From: the human T2T-CHM13v2.0 reference genome, Homo sapiens
Direction: 5' to 3' (one strand)
DNA: 64,000 nt
NCBI RefSeq assembly: GCF_009914755.1
Contig: NC_060930.1
Shown here: positions 6,883-14,038 of the stretch, piece after piece
Numbering within the stretch: position 1 is the first letter of the stretch
Layout: every line of letters begins with the position of its first letter
Position numbers and translations under genes: made by a program
The notes under the pieces: model-generated
The model's database searches: none
Told to the model about the DNA's origin: nothing
What the model saw: the letters and a program-made list of their open reading frames with translations, nothing else

Positions 6883-9722
6883 AAAACAATAAAGTTGAGC
6901 ATTTTTTCATGTTAAAGTAGCATTTGAATATCTATTTTACAAATTTCCTTTTCATGTCTTTTGCCTGTTTTTAAAATTGTGTCTTTTCTGTTTCAGTTGA
7001 TTTTTAAGATTTTCTTTCTCAAAGGGAAACTGCAACAACACAACAACAACAACGAAAATGTACCTAGAAAGGATAAAAGGGTCCCTGGGGACAAATCATT
7101 GTGATGTGGAACCAAAATACATCATAAGCATAATTAACATGGTCCAGGACAGCATAGAACATCTATATCAGTCTTCCTTATACAATAATCACGAAAACTG
7201 ATCAATGAATTTCTTTAACATGTACAAAAAACTGTCATGGGCTGGTTTAAACTTTTGCAACAGTTTTAAAGTTAACAGGATAACTAAAGAAATGATGCAG
7301 ACATTTTAATCCAGTGCTATAGGTAGGCTCAAAGAATTAGACTCAAAGATTTGTAAAAATAAAAATGAAAACAGTATAGCTACAATGTCAAAGTCAGGAA
7401 AGAAGAAAATTTACTTCTGTATTCAAGGATTACAGTGGTACGAAATGCAGTCTGCGTGTTTTTGTTTGTAATGAGATGGATAAGTACATCAGACTAGATA
7501 CAACATGCAGAATATTTTCCTGAACTTACCCAGAAATTCTAAAGAAAACATCACGAAACAGCTCACTAGAAAAAAAAAATGCCCTAGTTATTTACCCTGC
7601 TTCAACACTGTTAACGTAAAGGCAGAAATAAAGAAAGCTATCAATACCTCAGAACTACTGATATAAGACATCACATTTCTAAATCAGTGTATTCAAAAAG
7701 TGAACACTTTCTCTTTTTTCTCTCTTCTACATTTAACTAGAATCATGTTTTAAAAAATTGATATTAAATGTGACACTTCAGAGCTACTACTAGAAGCAGT
7801 AATTCATAACTTGCCTACCCTCCTTCCATCCCTGCTGATTCAGGAGAAGGGGGAAAAAACAAAGAAAACAAAACAAAAAACTAACCAGGGTGTCTTGTAG
7901 ATTTGCTGCTATGCCACAAAATGTTGGCATTTGCTGCCATGCCACAATGTTGGTCCACTGAAATAGGATTTCTGCGGAAACTGTCAACAGTAATTCACCA
8001 TATGCAAGTACCATCCTTAGCATGTGAGAATAATAACAGGTTCTGTAGAAATGTACAATGTGCTGAAGATAATGAAAATTGTAGCACTGCATTTGAGATT
8101 TATTTGTCTACTTATCTAGTAAAACTTGTCATTTTTGCTCACTTAATTATGGTCATTTGTGATTCCTTTAAATAGCAAAAATGCACAGTGCCCTTTAGGC
8201 CTCTACTCAATAATAGTTTACATTACTCTTAACAAAATCATTCTACATAAACTGATAGCTCCTTAAAAAGAGTACTCTCTCATTAAATCTAATTTGACAG
8301 AAAGAAGTTTAAGGAAAAAAGGAGTGTTTTATAAGTGAAAAACTACAGATCTTTGGCCTTTCTCTTGACATTTTCATATGTCAAAAAGCAAAAATACCTT
8401 CAGGTAATTCAATCTAGTGATTACTTTTTGCACCATAATTTGTTTTTTACACCACAAGAGGAGTCACTTTCAGTATCTGTAAAAGGTATTTAATCCTAAA
8501 ACATACTTACCTAGAGAATAATTAAAACAATTCAATACACTCTAATATCTATTAGGAAGTTAAGAGTTACCAGTTTAAAAGTCTTTTGAAAGTCAATGAT
8601 GTTACCTGGTCAATGGCAGGAAATAGGGATTGGAACAAATATAAGAACTTATGGGATTTCCTACATGAAGGCGAAAAAAGATATTCCTTTATGTTGTTTA
8701 AAAGTAGCAGCTACTCTTTCTTTATTTCATTTTAATCAATTAGTATTCATTCAAGTTTTCCCTTCTATTTTTCCTTGTAAGTTTCTTACAGTAGCTTATA
8801 CAACAATGAATAGCAAACAAAAACTACTAGATTCAATTGATCATCAGAAATAAGTTCTCAGAAAAACACAGGTGGAAAAATGAGCGAGAATCCCAAATAC
8901 AGAAATTTACAAGGTGTGAAACTTCATCTCTTGCAATCGTGTTATTGCTCAAATTAGAGACAATCTTATTTCTATCTATTGGAGCAGCATCTTGGCACAT
9001 CAACAGGCAATGATGAGGTTGAGAACAGCAGCAAAAATAAACAATCGTATGCTCATGAAGAACCCAAGCCTACCAGATGGATGCCTTTCAGAAAAGCGTA
9101 TACTTAAAAGACCCAAGACGTCAGGATGATAAAGCTCTGTATTTATAGTCTTTTATATGTCCTTTTGTATGTCCTATTGTGGCTACTATGCTTAAGTAAA
9201 ATAGCTACAGGAAAAAAAAAAAAAGATGACAATATAATAAAAATGTAGCTGTCTCTTTTGGCAGCTATATTGCAGAATTTCTTGACTATCTTTTGATCAG
9301 CTGGGGAAAAGTCAATAACTGAATGCAAACGAATAAATTGTCCATATAAAAATACAAAAGTACTGTCAATAATCACCTCTGACTTTCAGGTTTAAATTCA
9401 GTGCAATTGACAAATGCATTGCTAAAGGAAAATGCAACTTAAAAGATACTCAAAACATTTGGGTCTATTGCTGGGACCACATTTCAAAATTCTTGCACAG
9501 ATTTTTTTTAATTTTAATTTTAATTTTTAAACAATAACAGAGATCAACCACAGATGTGGACCTCTAGCAATAAAAGCAGGAATTCAAGTGCCAGATATTC
9601 AGCATATTAGGTTTCCTACAGAAGTCACAGGTTAAGAAGTTCTAAATATCTCTAATGTGATTCAAAACCCTAAAAAGAGCTGGCACAAAACCATCGTGAA
9701 TGACTGCCTCTACTGATGCAAA

Positions 9723-10016
9723 TTTTTTTTTTTTTTGAGATGGAGTCTCACTCTGTCATCCAGGCTGGAGTGCAATGGTGTGGTCTCGGCTCACTGCAAC
9801 CTCCGCCTCCTGGGTTCAAGCGATTCTCCTGCCTCAGCTTCCTGAGTAGCTGGGACTACAGGCGCATGCCACCTCACCCGGCTAATTTTTGTATTTTTAG
9901 TAGAGACGGGGTTTCACTATGTTGGCCAGGCTGGTCTCCAACACCTGACCTCGTGATCTGCCCACCTTGGCCTCCCAAAGTGCTGGGATTACAGGCATGA
10001 GCCACCGCGCCAGGCC
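9723..10016 (-). mobile_element. AluS (Sg-like) in the pseudogene 3'UTR
   Basis: Full dimer; gacctcgtgatc; degenerate TSD tgatgcaaattttt / tgtatgtaaattttt. Confidence 0.93.
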
Positions 10017-11074
10017 TGTATGTAAATTTTTAAAAATATTATTACGGTATCATAGTCCCCACTAACAACAACTGGGATACATATAACAATGTATTGTGAA
10101 ATTAAGTGTATTTATAATCTCTACCAATAGCAAATGCTACCCTACCTTGGTAAAACCAAGAGTTGCTTCAATCAATGCTGTTTTGTAAAAATAGCAAAGC
10201 AACAATTGCTGAAAATCAAAGTTGCATTCCTTGGGTTAAGCCAGTTTCTACTTAAACTTTAGTACTAAAAGGCCTCAAAATAATTCATGACAGAAATAGT
10301 GTTATTAATTTGCCAAGCTCAACAATAAGGAATTCCTTGATTAAAATCTTTGAGATATAAATTTGATGACCTTTCTCTTTAGAGATGACATACCTGGATT
10401 ATACTAATCATGACAAGCCTTATTAGTCACACTTATAAACATGGCCTCATGCAATCGTTTGTCTGTATATGTTACTCTTAGTTGCATGAGAACAAGAGGT
10501 TTAATTTAATGTCTATGTCTTTAAGAAAATACTTGATATTATAAACAGAGTAAAAGACATGATAAAGTAGTGATACCGAAACAAAAATTAGCTGCTTAAA
10601 TCTATCTATATTTGAAAAAATGTTGTCACAAGTATCACAAGTGCAGAATCAGAGCAGCAGGCAGAAGGTTAGTGCAATTATACTTTCATAAAAAAAAAAA
10701 TCGCAATCACTGCTATTTAAAAACACCTTGAAGCAAGTCTTTTGTTTTAGAGATTGTTTTTTAAACTAAGGTAGCAAACATTTTGCCATGTAATGGAAGT
10801 GTTATATGCCGTTATCTTGCTTTGTATAAAGAAAACAACATGAGAGATTTCTAATAGTGGAGTTTGGTTACATTACATATTTAAGCTTCTACACAGAATG
10901 ATAGACAATTCGAGAAGCGAATCCTTACCCAGAAACATTTCAATCTCTCAAAAAAAAAGCAAAACAAACAAACAAACAAACAAACAACAAAAAACCCAAA
11001 ACTACTTTGCTCCTTTTCACAATAGTGCACATTTTTACCATAATTTATTTATGGCTACAAAACATCAGAAGTGG

Positions 11075-11394
11075 TTTTTTTTTTTTTTTTTTTTTTTTTT
11101 TTTTTTTTTTTTGAGTTGGCGTCTCGCTCTGTCACCCAGGCTGGAGTGCAGTGGCGCGATCTCTGCTCACTGCAACCTCCGCCTCCCGGGTTCAAGCGAT
11201 TCTCCTGCCTCAGCCTCCTGAGTAGCTGGGATTACAGGCGCCCGCCACTGCGCCTGGCTAATTTTTGTATTTTTGGTAGAGATGGTGTTTCACCATCTTG
11301 GCCAGGCTGGTCAAGAACTCCTGACCTCAGGTGATTCACCCGCCTTGGCCTCCCAAAGTGCTGGGATTATAGGTGTGAGCCACTGCGTCCAGCC
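11075..11394 (-). mobile_element. AluS (Sx-like) in the pseudogene 3'UTR, with a T38 tail
   Basis: Full dimer; gacctcaggtgat; pure T-run 11075-11112. Confidence 0.93.
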
Positions 11395-13269: not shown

Positions 13270-13274
13270 AGGAC

Positions 13275-13313
13275 AAGGATAAATTCATGTCCTTTGCAGG
13301 GATGTGGATGAAG
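13275..13313 (+). mobile_element. 39-nt L1 fragment embedded between pseudogene segments
   Basis: aaggataaattcatgtcctttgcagggatgtggatgaag; 37/39 identical to 13699-13737. Confidence 0.9.
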
Positions 13314-13512
13314 TCCTGTTGGACTCCATTTGATAGGATAAATTTCTTTATTATGTGCTTGCAAATCATGGACACAATTGTCTTGTTTCATACTCCATAT
13401 CTTTAAAGTCATGTCATCAGAACAAGAGGCCAGGAGATTGCCAGTTGGGTCCCATTTGATAGCATTTACTTCATTCTTATGTCCCTGGAATGTTTTAATA
13501 GGTCTGTCTTGT
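13313..13512 (-). pseudogene. TBL1XR1: TBL1XR1 processed pseudogene, segment 3: WD40 region ~aa338-403
   Basis: Minus strand reads [66 protein letters not shown]; not shown in the ORF track. Confidence 0.95.
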
Positions 13513-14038
13513 GACCCAGTGATCCCATTACTCAGTATATACCCAAAGGATTATAAATAATGCTACTATAAAGACACATGCACATGTATGTTTATTGCAG
13601 CACAATTCACATTAGCAAAGACTTGGAACCAACCCAAGTGTTCATCAATTAGGAAAATGTGGCACATATACACCATGGAATACTATGCGGCCATAAAAAA
13701 GGATAAGTTCATGTCCTTTGCAGGGACGTGGATGAAGCTGGAAACCATCATTCTGAGCAATCTATCCCGAAGACAGAAAACCAAACACTGGACGTTCTCC
13801 CTCATAGGCAAGAGTTGAACAATGAGAATGCACGGACACAGGGCGGGGAACATCACACACCAGGACCTGTCGGGGCGTGGGGGGTATGAGGCAGGGATAG
13901 CATAGGAGAAATACCTAATGTAAATGACGAGTTGATGGGTGCAGCAAACCAACATGGCACATGTATACCTATGTAACAAGCCTGCACGTTGTGCACATGT
14001 ACCCTAGAAATTAAAGTATAATAAAAAAATAAATAAAA
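13512..14038 (+). mobile_element. LINE-1 3' end (L1PA5/6-like), ~525 bp, with A-tail
   Basis: ORF2 C-terminus (TWNQPKC..MEYYAAIKK..WMKLETIIL); 3'UTR aatgtaaatgacgagttgatgggtgcagcaaaccaacatgg; tail aataaaaaaataaataaaa. Confidence 0.93.

What the first reader, a model, noticed from the sequence alone, without database searches (positions are those of the whole stretch)
7020..14038. Scrambled TBL1XR1 retrocopy fused head-to-head with an L1: probable two-RNA, multi-switch insertion
Seen: order on the + strand is [3'UTR and aa~443-514, antisense] - [aa~22-162, sense] - caggac - [39-nt L1, sense] - [aa~338-403, antisense] - [L1 3' 525 nt plus A-tail, sense]. The junctions (~12837, 13269, 13313, 13512) have only ~1-nt overlaps. 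Known: ordinary twin priming gives one inversion of one RNA. Here there are three strand changes, two RNA templates, and both outer ends are RNA 3' regions. Inference: the left nick primed on TBL1XR1 mRNA, the right nick on L1 mRNA, and several template switches followed.
Basis: partly seen in the sequence, partly recalled or inferred. Interest (0 to 1): 0.85.

Follow-up and report, generated by a model that had tools for sequence, protein, structure and literature searches.

The report
Scrambled TBL1XR1 retrocopy joined to L1
An old, dead insertion on human chromosome 6 is built from three reshuffled pieces of spliced TBL1XR1 mRNA copy interleaved with two pieces of an L1 element, most likely made in one messy L1 copying event of a kind already seen in cell experiments.

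Summary
The + strand order is:
- A, 7020-12837: TBL1XR1 3'UTR plus the last three coding exons, antisense, with three later Alus.
- B, 12837-13269: codons ~22-162, sense.
- AGGAC filler, 13270-13274.
- C, 13275-13313: 39 nt of L1, sense.
- D, 13313-13512: codons ~338-403, antisense.
- E, 13513-14038: L1 3' end with A tail.

All TBL1XR1 pieces are spliced. They diverge alike from the parent gene on chromosome 3 (15/353, 17/412, 6/205; p=0.71). Junction overlaps are 0-1 nt.

Two corrections. The left end has no A/T tail and stops 53 nt short of the nearest parental AATAAA. No convincing target-site duplication flanks the composite.

Best reading (about 0.65): one L1-driven event. L1 RNA was copied from the right break end, TBL1XR1 mRNA was copied from the left end starting at an internal site, and extra template switches filled the middle.

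This kind is in print: two-RNA, opposite-orientation and multi-piece insertions (PMC11702581; PMC13174262). It is an unusually complex, uncatalogued example of a known kind. The primate orthologue test could not be run.

The parts
7020..12837 (-). Segment A: TBL1XR1 cDNA, 3'UTR (from C3:179823816) plus the last three coding exons (about codons 443-514), antisense on the + strand. About 4.85 kb of TBL1XR1 sequence once the three Alus are removed.
   Evidence: BLASTN, 90-97% identity, intron-free exon joints; the end at C3:179836047 lies inside an exon; coding 15/353 and UTR 250/4495 mismatches.
9728..10019 (-). Alu 1, inserted later into segment A, poly(T) at its left. Flanked by a 12-nt duplication of TBL1XR1 UTR sequence.
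   Evidence: parent coordinates 179826522-533 are present on both sides; sequence.
11083..11397 (-). Alu 2, inserted later into segment A. About 8 nt of parental sequence is duplicated at its sides.
   Evidence: parent 179827574-581 on both sides.
12179..12488 (-). Alu 3, inserted later into segment A just 3' of the stop-codon region. About 11 nt of parental sequence is duplicated.
   Evidence: parent 179828354-364 on both sides.
12837..13269 (+). Segment B: TBL1XR1 cDNA, three exons, about codons 22-162, sense on the + strand. It starts 4 nt inside its first exon and shares 1 nt (T at 12837) with A.
   Evidence: starts at residue 22 of chain 2xtc; 17/412 mismatches.
13128..13161 (+). Run of 34 A inside B, where the parent has 6 A. 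TBL1XR1 sequence is continuous on both sides.
   Evidence: sequence; parent exon; gap columns in B_ex2.
13270..13274 (+). Filler AGGAC. Together with the C at 13269 it is the reverse complement of the first 6 nt of D (GTCCTG, 13313-13318). The 39-nt L1 piece therefore sits between a 6-nt inverted repeat.
   Evidence: read directly from the sequence and the parental exon.
13275..13313 (+). Segment C: 39 nt of L1 (end of ORF2 region), sense. It is the same L1 stretch as 13699-13737 in E. Its last G is shared with D.
   Evidence: 30 L1 places match it; 37/39 to E; the next best in the window are 34/39 and 30/39.
13313..13512 (-). Segment D: TBL1XR1 cDNA, three exons, about codons 338-403, antisense on the + strand. 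Both ends lie inside exons.
   Evidence: 4lg9_A residues 224-289 of 400; 6/205 mismatches.
13513..14038 (+). Segment E: 5'-truncated L1 3' end, sense, with a short interrupted A tail (about 14027-14038). The T at 13512 is shared with D.
   Evidence: end-to-end matches to L1 3' ends, 87-88%; 39/507 differences from the majority of its 29 nearest copies, 23-30 of them private; tail.
6994..7001 (.). Weak candidate for the left target-site duplication (CAGTTGAT). Its partner would be CAGTTCTGAT at 14039-14048. Not significant.
   Evidence: anchored control 3.6%; unanchored controls 26-33%; 70% of shuffles reach the best local alignment.

Best explanation
I read this as one L1 ORF2p-driven insertion, roughly 4% divergence old, that used two RNA templates.

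Shown: the anatomy, the splicing of the TBL1XR1 pieces, and the junction features.

Inferred, step by step:
1. The right-hand break end (minus strand) primed on the poly(A) of an L1 RNA and copied 526 nt (E). This is an ordinary 5'-truncated L1 insertion.
2. The left-hand (reciprocal) end was extended on a TBL1XR1 mRNA. Copying began at an internal site 53 nt before the nearest AATAAA and ran about 4.85 kb to codon 443 (A). This is how the second primer behaves in twin priming, except that the RNA is a different one.
3. By direction of reverse transcription the pieces read A> <B <filler <C D> <E. B, the filler and C form one chain made in the same direction as E: L1 RNA for 39 nt, then 5-6 nt, then TBL1XR1 codons 162 to 22. 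D runs in the same direction as A and lies upstream of it on the mRNA.
4. One path needs no free cDNA. The left-end strand copied A, skipped 117 nt and copied D. The right-end strand, after E, copied D from that new strand. It then left D and re-copied 39 nt of L1 RNA. Next it snapped back on its own ...CAGGAC end to make GTCCT(G). Finally it copied TBL1XR1 codons 162-22 and rejoined at codon 443.
5. Capture and near-blunt ligation of free cDNA pieces would give the same product.

The result is a dead, non-coding composite. I see no sign of present function.
For: - All TBL1XR1 pieces are intron-free copies of one gene and do not overlap.
- They are equally diverged from the parent: A 15/353, B 17/412, D 6/205, homogeneity p=0.71.
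- No other TBL1XR1-derived piece lies in the window. No other copy of the TBL1XR1 3'UTR end exists in the genome.
- L1 and TBL1XR1 pieces alternate. C duplicates a stretch that E also contains, rather than continuing E. A later L1 insertion into a plain retrocopy therefore cannot produce the layout.
- C has E's base at both positions where E departs from the majority of its 29 nearest relatives: A at 13705 (0/29) and G at 13728 (5/29).
- E's private divergence is 23-30 of 507 (4.5-5.9%). That is not distinguishable from the TBL1XR1 coding pieces at 38/970 = 3.9% (p=0.09 for 30/507) or from the UTR at 5.6%.
- E's nearest relatives are themselves 2.5-5.6% from their majority.
- E alone has no flanking repeat.
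- Junctions are near blunt (0-1 nt). One filler is an inverted copy of the adjacent D end.
- These outcome classes were seen de novo in cells expressing L1 (PMC11702581, passages read). There were nine insertions with two RNAs, and opposite orientation was explained by both DNA ends being extended on different templates. There was also a tripartite GREM1 insertion, and a SEMA3C insertion with two extra reverse-transcribed pieces at its inner junction.
Against: - No significant target-site duplication flanks the composite. The best candidate matches 8 of 10 with a 2-nt gap; 3.6% of anchored controls and 26-33% of unanchored controls do as well, and 70% of shuffles reach the best local alignment.
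- In the cell experiments, twin-primed insertions kept discrete 12-18 bp duplications (PMC11702581).
- The left end has no tail. The T-rich 20 nt beside it are no richer than the 120 nt of flank further left (T 50-65%, longest T run 6).
- The link between C and E is weaker than it first looked. At least 19 L1 copies elsewhere match C as well as or better than E does, among 30 L1 places scored (149 candidates, 40 scored).
- The A at 13705 marks a set of older-looking copies. In those copies it goes with G at 13814 (17/20) and A at 13832 (19/20). It therefore shows shared lineage, not necessarily the same RNA molecule.
- E may be slightly older than the TBL1XR1 pieces: 39/507 against the majority versus 38/970, p=0.003, if no difference is credited to subfamily.
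- The exact path of switches is inference. No orthologous locus could be examined.
Confidence: 0.65

Rival explanations
1. Two events. A 5'-truncated L1 (E) was already in place. Later a break at or next to its 5' edge was repaired by capturing several TBL1XR1 cDNA pieces. The 39-nt piece C was a short templated copy taken from the neighbouring L1 DNA, 187-225 nt inside E, as in polymerase-theta-type end joining.
For: - E's divergence is on the high side: 39/507 against the majority of its relatives, and 23-30 private, versus 38/970 for TBL1XR1 coding.
- C is nearest to E within the window and lies only about 190-230 nt from its source stretch.
- The filler is also a local, inverted templated copy.
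- There is no tail at the left end and no clear duplication, as expected for break repair rather than clean target-primed insertion.
- Sequences templated from DNA near the integration site were seen in three de novo insertions (PMC11702581).
Against: - It requires the break to fall exactly at the L1's 5' end, with 1 nt of overlap.
- The age difference is not significant once lineage markers are removed (p=0.09).
- The TBL1XR1 cDNA pieces still need L1 reverse transcriptase.
- A contemporaneous L1 RNA is the simplest source of both L1 pieces.
Confidence: 0.15
2. Stepwise decay. An ordinary collinear (or simply twin-primed) TBL1XR1 retrocopy and an L1 insertion were later scrambled by unrelated inversions, deletions and a small duplication.
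For: - The locus is old, at about 4% divergence, so there was time for change.
- It has taken three Alu insertions and several indels since.
- A and D are collinear and in the same orientation, as in a plain retrocopy.
Against: - Getting from A-x-D-y-B (all antisense) to A-B-filler-C-D-E needs several things: B moved and inverted, x (117 nt) and y (525 nt) deleted precisely at the new joints, and a 39-nt L1 copy placed between.
- That is at least three or four independent rearrangements, all with breakpoints at the piece boundaries and none elsewhere.
- No inverted or direct repeats that could drive such inversions were seen at the junctions.
Confidence: 0.1
3. Both ends were primed on poly(A). 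The TBL1XR1 RNA carried a tail added at a non-canonical 3' end. CAGT(TC)TGAT is the true target-site duplication. The 18 T-rich nt at 7002-7019 are the decayed tail.
For: - The candidate repeat starts exactly at the first base after the L1 tail. Its anchored control frequency is 3.6%.
- The stretch 7002-7019 is T-rich.
Against: - The T-richness equals that of the flank further left, and the longest T run is 6.
- No AATAAA or ATTAAA lies within about 280 nt upstream of the retrocopy's end in the parent; the next one is 53 nt downstream.
- Unanchored controls reach the repeat score in 26-33% of trials.
Confidence: 0.07

Closest known systems
Complex L1-mediated insertions with two RNA templates (Mendez-Dorantes et al., bioRxiv 2024, PMC11702581; passages read; figures and supplements not seen)
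   Same: - Pieces from two transcripts lie in opposite orientation, explained there by both break ends being extended by reverse transcription on different templates and then joined.
- Extra reverse-transcribed pieces sit at the inner junction (the SEMA3C case).
[quoted passage not shown]
- Junctions are near blunt, microhomologous or filled.
   Different: - Those are de novo events in cultured cells, and the examples shown kept target-site duplications and poly(A).
- This locus is a fixed germline insertion, about 4% diverged. It has five pieces plus a filler, no clear duplication, and no tail on the mRNA side.
- I could not see whether any of their nine cases pairs L1 with an mRNA in this way.
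Twin priming (Ostertag and Kazazian 2001; cited in the papers read, itself recalled)
   Same: - The second break end primes internally on an RNA.
- Two converging cDNAs are joined with little or no homology.
- A and B look like the sense and inverted arms of one RNA.
   Different: - In twin priming one RNA gives one inversion, and the inner breakpoints are adjacent on the RNA (1-10 bp apart in 32 of 32 de novo cases, PMC11702581).
- Here the A/B breakpoints are 840 nt apart on the mRNA.
- The tailed arm belongs to a different RNA (L1).
- There are three strand changes.
Twin priming with 5' or 3' switching, and templated insertions, in tumours (bioRxiv 10.1101/2024.08.27.596794; passages read)
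   Same: An additional inner segment is created when one of the two growing cDNAs moves to another template position. Non-L1 templates are incorporated in 22 insertions.
   Different: Those switching models use a single L1 RNA. Here the switches alternate between L1 RNA and an mRNA, and probably a nascent cDNA.
Evolutionary L1 chimeras (Law and Burns 2026, PMC13174262; abstract, section 13 and passages read; 4 supplementary files searched)
   Same: Non-L1 RNA arrives together with an L1 3' end. For antisense partners (5S rRNA, tRNA halves, 2 of 17 mRNA chimeras) the authors propose twin priming on a second RNA.
   Different: - Their mRNA chimeras are mostly sense-oriented first exons spliced to near full-length L1.
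- This one has a 526-nt L1 and a 5.5-kb scrambled mRNA copy.
- TBL1XR1 occurs 0 times in the text and in the 4 supplementary files held.

Membership tests
Processed pseudogene (L1-mediated retrocopy of an mRNA) | Intron-free copy of spliced exons of a parent gene located elsewhere | tested here: met
   nine coding-exon pieces abut without introns. The parent is on C3 at 179.82-179.86 Mb.
Processed pseudogene (L1-mediated retrocopy of an mRNA) | Poly(A) tail at the mRNA's polyadenylation site | tested here: not met
   the copy ends at C3:179823816, 53 nt before the nearest AATAAA. There is no T run longer than 6 beside it.
Processed pseudogene (L1-mediated retrocopy of an mRNA) | Flanking target-site duplication | tested here: inconclusive
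   only an 8-of-10 gapped candidate (anchored control 3.6%, unanchored 26-33%).
Processed pseudogene (L1-mediated retrocopy of an mRNA) | Collinear with the mRNA | tested here: not met
   the order is 443-end (antisense), 22-162 (sense), 338-403 (antisense). Codons 163-337 and 404-442 are absent.
Classical twin priming (5'-inverted insertion) | Two arms of the same RNA in opposite orientation | tested here: met
   A is antisense and B is sense, joined with 1 nt of overlap.
Classical twin priming (5'-inverted insertion) | Inner breakpoints adjacent on the RNA (small deletion or duplication) | tested here: not met
   codon 162 against codon 443, 840 nt apart. Part of the gap (338-403) sits elsewhere in the composite.
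Classical twin priming (5'-inverted insertion) | The poly(A)-primed arm and the inverted arm come from one RNA | tested here: not met
   the only tailed arm is L1 (E). The TBL1XR1 arm has no tail.
L1 chimeric retrogene by template switch or RNA ligation (U6/L1 type) | Partner RNA lies 5' of the L1 in the same orientation | tested here: not met
   the piece touching E (D) is antisense to it. B is sense but is separated from E by C and D.
L1 chimeric retrogene by template switch or RNA ligation (U6/L1 type) | L1 3' end with poly(A) at an endonuclease-type site | tested here: inconclusive
   a short interrupted A tail is present. The tail/flank border (...TAAATAAAA|CAGTT) is compatible with a T-rich primer strand but is ambiguous.
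Two-RNA, opposite-orientation complex L1 insertion (PMC11702581) | Reverse-transcribed pieces from two transcripts, with reverse transcription running inward from both flanks | tested here: met
   A is cDNA-sense on the + strand next to the left flank. E is cDNA-sense on the - strand next to the right flank.
Two-RNA, opposite-orientation complex L1 insertion (PMC11702581) | Junctions near blunt, microhomologous or with short fillers | tested here: met
   overlaps of 1, 0-1, 0, 1 and 1 nt, and one 5-nt filler.
Two-RNA, opposite-orientation complex L1 insertion (PMC11702581) | All pieces arrive in one event | not testable with these tools
   No primate genomes are held. The only indirect support is equal divergence and the interleaved layout.

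The most novel reading that the evidence does not exclude
The middle block records second-strand synthesis by the L1 enzyme in vivo. After copying L1 RNA (E), the same growing strand copied the freshly made TBL1XR1 cDNA from the other break end (D). It then went back to L1 RNA for 39 nt (C) and snapped back on its own end for 5-6 nt, which made the CAGGAC/GTCCTG inverted repeat. It then copied TBL1XR1 mRNA again (B) and finally rejoined the other strand. On this reading one polymerase alternated between RNA and nascent DNA templates five times at a single insertion. A related bold reading is that cDNA synthesis started twice, on opposite strands, at the same TBL1XR1 nucleotide (codon 403). That would point to a broken mRNA 3' end serving as a preferred landing site for template jumps.
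Probability: 0.15. Interest if true: 0.55.

Novelty: new member of a known kind. Interest (0 to 1): 0.35.

Why it matters
Such loci are natural records of what can happen between the two DNA nicks of an L1 insertion. This one shows, in the germline and fixed in the reference, the complex outcomes recently produced in cell culture and seen in tumours. It is fully resolved in a gap-free assembly. It could serve as a worked example for pipelines that call chimeric or scrambled retrocopies. The current gene table lists only 12489-13512 as a minus-strand TBL1XR1 pseudogene. That annotation misses 5.5 kb of 3'UTR-derived sequence and the strand changes. The locus does not open a new question: the mechanism classes are already described, and no function is suggested.

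Tried and rejected
1. Target-site duplication. The free local alignment of 100 nt from each flank was no better than shuffles. No shared word of 7 or more was found in direct orientation. The anchored candidate is weak. There are no repeats around E or any inner block.

2. Reconstructing the empty site from a repeat spanning both flanks. The left flank 6560-6882 is an old repeat, but 6883-7019 and the right flank are unique. No bridge is possible.

3. C derived from the L1 fragment in the parental TBL1XR1 intron (C3:179836697-829), that is, from an unspliced transcript. 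Rejected: that fragment is only 75% like E, and C has no hit in the 50-kb parent region.

4. C copied from other L1s in the window. The older L1 in the left flank matches 30/39 and the L1 at about 20698 matches 34/39, against 37/39 for E.

5. E as the 3' part of the older L1 in the left flank (5001-5679 and 6031-6556). Rejected: that element has its own 3' end and is 74-81% like the L1 loci.

6. A rare shared variant proving that C and E came from the same RNA.
   - The E-type 23-mer occurs 96 times, the C-type 3 times and the majority type 3387 times.
   - However, 20 fetched copies (19 of them E-type) share further states with E: 13814 G in 17/20 and 13832 A in 19/20. They are only 82-87% like E.
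   - The variant is therefore a lineage marker, and the argument is reduced to 'same lineage'.

7. Other TBL1XR1 retrocopies that might show the mRNA's true 3' end. None was found.

8. Naming the L1 subfamily.

9. Print search for this locus. Searches for TBL1XR1 with retrocopy, and for LOC100421513, each found 0 papers. TBL1XR1 occurs 0 times in the text and 4 supplementary files of PMC13174262. A coordinate search there found nothing, but the hg38 position I used was estimated from memory.

Full report
**What is there.** The window is human chromosome 6 (T2T assembly), and the whole genome could be searched. A search with 12500-13520 found the parent gene on contig C3 at 179.82-179.86 Mb, matching exon by exon on both strands, plus many L1 copies matching only 13275-13313. 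I fetched 50 kb of the parent and aligned window 6500-14600 to it.

The TBL1XR1-derived DNA falls into three blocks:
- A, 7020-12837, is antisense. It holds about 4.5 kb of 3'UTR starting at C3:179823816 and the last three coding exons up to C3:179836047.
- B, 12837-13269, is sense and holds three exons (C3:179856885 down to 179853524).
- D, 13313-13512, is antisense and holds three exons (C3:179837226 up to 179841320).

All exon joints are intron-free. The four block ends at 12837, 13269, 13313 and 13512 lie inside exons, not at splice sites. B starts at residue 22 of the related TBL1X chain 2xtc. D equals residues 224-289 of the 400-residue TBL1XR1 chain 4lg9_A.

Between B and D lie AGGAC (13270-13274) and 39 nt of L1 (C, 13275-13313). 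After D comes a 5'-truncated L1 3' end (E, 13513-14020) and a short interrupted A tail to 14038. Three Alus (9728-10019, 11083-11397, 12179-12488) interrupt A. At each one the parental coordinates overlap by 12, 8 and 11 nt, so they are later insertions with their own duplications.

**Junctions.** Reading the parent next to the window gives these overlaps:
- A|B shares one T (12837).
- B ends at the C of AAAGC (13269).
- C|D shares one G (13313).
- D|E shares one T (12 nt... at 13512).

The filler AGGAC, with the C before it, is the exact reverse complement of the first six bases of D (GTCCTG). The 39-nt L1 piece is therefore bracketed by a 6-nt inverted repeat of TBL1XR1 sequence at codon 402-403. 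A given 5-mer is expected once in 1024. Allowing for the roughly 16 ways such a coincidence could have been noticed, this is suggestive (my estimate, about 0.02) of a templated, snap-back origin of the filler.

**The outer ends.**
- The right end is ordinary: an L1 3' end, an A tail, then unique flank.
- The left end is not. The copy stops at C3:179823816. The nearest AATAAA in the parent lies 53 nt further 3', and no AATAAA or ATTAAA lies within about 280 nt upstream.
- The 20 nt to the left of 7020 are 65% T, but so is the flank for another 120 nt (50-60%), and the longest T run is 6. There is no tail. The TBL1XR1 cDNA began at an internal site or lost its end.
- No convincing target-site duplication exists. 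The best local alignment of the two flanks is reached by 70% of shuffles.
- The candidate CAGT--TGAT (6994-7001) against CAGTTCTGAT (14039-14048) is matched by 3.6% of anchored controls and 26-33% of unanchored controls.
- E alone, and every inner block, lacks a repeat with the right flank.
- The flanks do not belong to one older repeat that could reveal the empty site.

**One event or several.** The TBL1XR1 pieces differ from the parent's coding sequence at 15/353 (A), 17/412 (B) and 6/205 (D). These are homogeneous (p=0.71) and pool to 38/970 = 3.9%. The UTR differs at 250/4495 = 5.6%, with both lineages free to change.

E differs at 39/507 from the majority of its 29 best-scoring relatives, which are themselves 2.5-5.6% from that majority. 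About nine of those sites are polymorphic among relatives, leaving 23-30 private changes, or 4.5-5.9%. That is not distinguishable from the TBL1XR1 pieces (p=0.09 for 30/507; p=0.003 if all 39 are counted). The ages are compatible, with E possibly a little older.

C is nearest to E within the window: 37/39, against 34/39 and 30/39 for the other L1s. C has E's state at both positions where E departs from its relatives' majority: A at 13705 (0/29) and G at 13728 (5/29). I first took the A for a rare private variant, because the E-type 23-mer occurs 96 times against 3387 for the majority type and 3 for the C-type. However, 20 fetched copies (19 carrying it) also share E's 13814 G (17/20) and 13832 A (19/20), and they are only 82-87% like E. 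The variant therefore marks a lineage. At least 19 copies elsewhere match C as well as E does. C and E come from the same L1 lineage. The same RNA is likely but not shown.

The strongest argument is structural. L1 and TBL1XR1 pieces alternate. C repeats a stretch that E also contains, 187-225 nt inside it. The TBL1XR1 pieces on either side of C are not neighbours on the mRNA. A later L1 insertion into a plain retrocopy cannot give this. Scrambling a collinear copy would need B moved and inverted, two exact deletions (117 and 525 nt) and a 39-nt L1 copy, with every breakpoint at a piece boundary.

**Mechanism (inferred).** Marking each piece by the direction in which it would have been reverse transcribed gives A> <B <filler <C D> <E.
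- The left flank primes A and the right flank primes E. Both break ends were extended, on different RNAs.
- B, the filler and C form one chain in E's direction. D runs in A's direction and lies 117 nt upstream of it on the mRNA.
- One path needs only the two ends and the two RNAs. The left strand copied A, skipped to codon 403 and copied D. The right strand, after E, annealed to the end of D and copied it. It then left D, re-copied 39 nt of L1 RNA, folded back on its own ...CAGGAC end for 5-6 nt, copied TBL1XR1 codons 162 to 22, and rejoined at codon 443.
- Ligation of free double-stranded cDNA pieces by near-blunt end joining would give the same product. I cannot tell these two apart.

**Comparison with what is known.**
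- In cells induced to express L1, long reads showed nine insertions with pieces of two transcripts. [quoted passage not shown] - In that study, classical 5'-inverted insertions had inner breakpoints 1-10 bp apart in 32 of 32 cases and kept 12-18 bp duplications. This locus fails both criteria.
- Tumour long reads gave 'twin priming and 5'/3' switching' and 22 templated insertions (bioRxiv 10.1101/2024.08.27.596794; passages read).
- An evolutionary catalogue proposes twin priming on a second RNA for antisense partners of L1 and lists 17 mRNA/L1 chimeras, 15 of them sense (PMC13174262; abstract, section 13 and passages). TBL1XR1 is absent from its text and from the 4 supplementary files held.
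- No paper in the library holds TBL1XR1 with 'retrocopy', or LOC100421513.

**Verdict.** The finding is real and carefully described. Its single-event reading is the best available (about 0.65). The decisive primate comparison could not be run, the left end is not a poly(A)-primed end, and no duplication ties the ends together. The mechanism class is already in print, so this is a new and unusually intricate member of a known kind. It is worth a note for annotation and as a test case, but it is not a surprise to specialists. Interest 0.35.

Noticed in passing
window 13128-13161: A run of 34 A inside segment B, where the parental exon has 6 A (GCAAAAAATGG). TBL1XR1 sequence continues on both sides. 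It is either slippage during reverse transcription or later microsatellite growth, and it is likely to vary in length between people.
   Followed up: partly
window 13095-13120: The alanine-coding GCN repeat of TBL1XR1 is about 15 nt shorter in the retrocopy than in the parent, and a 3-nt deletion lies nearby. Together with the A run these make up the 46 gap columns of that exon.
   Followed up: partly
window 5001-5679 and 6031-6556: An older L1 on the + strand (74-81% identical to the fetched L1 loci) with its own 3' end. It is split by an insertion at about 5680-6030 (masked 5698-5990, probably an Alu). It is unrelated to the composite.
   Followed up: partly
window 6560-6882: A dispersed old repeat directly after that L1. 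The best copy elsewhere is 82% identical (C1:248331132-248331453), with 126 first-look candidates. The family was not named.
   Followed up: no
L012 (C3:179836697-179836829): The parental TBL1XR1 intron between the exons that end A and start D holds an L1 fragment in the same relative orientation as C and E. It is only 75% like E and is not the source of C. This is a coincidence that could mislead.
   Followed up: yes
window 12489-13512 (gene table): RefSeq annotates only this span as a minus-strand TBL1XR1 pseudogene. Yet 12837-13269 is on the plus strand, 13275-13313 is L1, and 5.5 kb of 3'UTR-derived sequence (7020-12488) is left out.
   Followed up: yes
window 9728-10019, 11083-11397, 12179-12488: All three Alus that landed in the retrocopy's UTR have the same orientation (poly(T) on the left, that is, sense with respect to the TBL1XR1 copy). 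Subfamilies were not determined.
   Followed up: no
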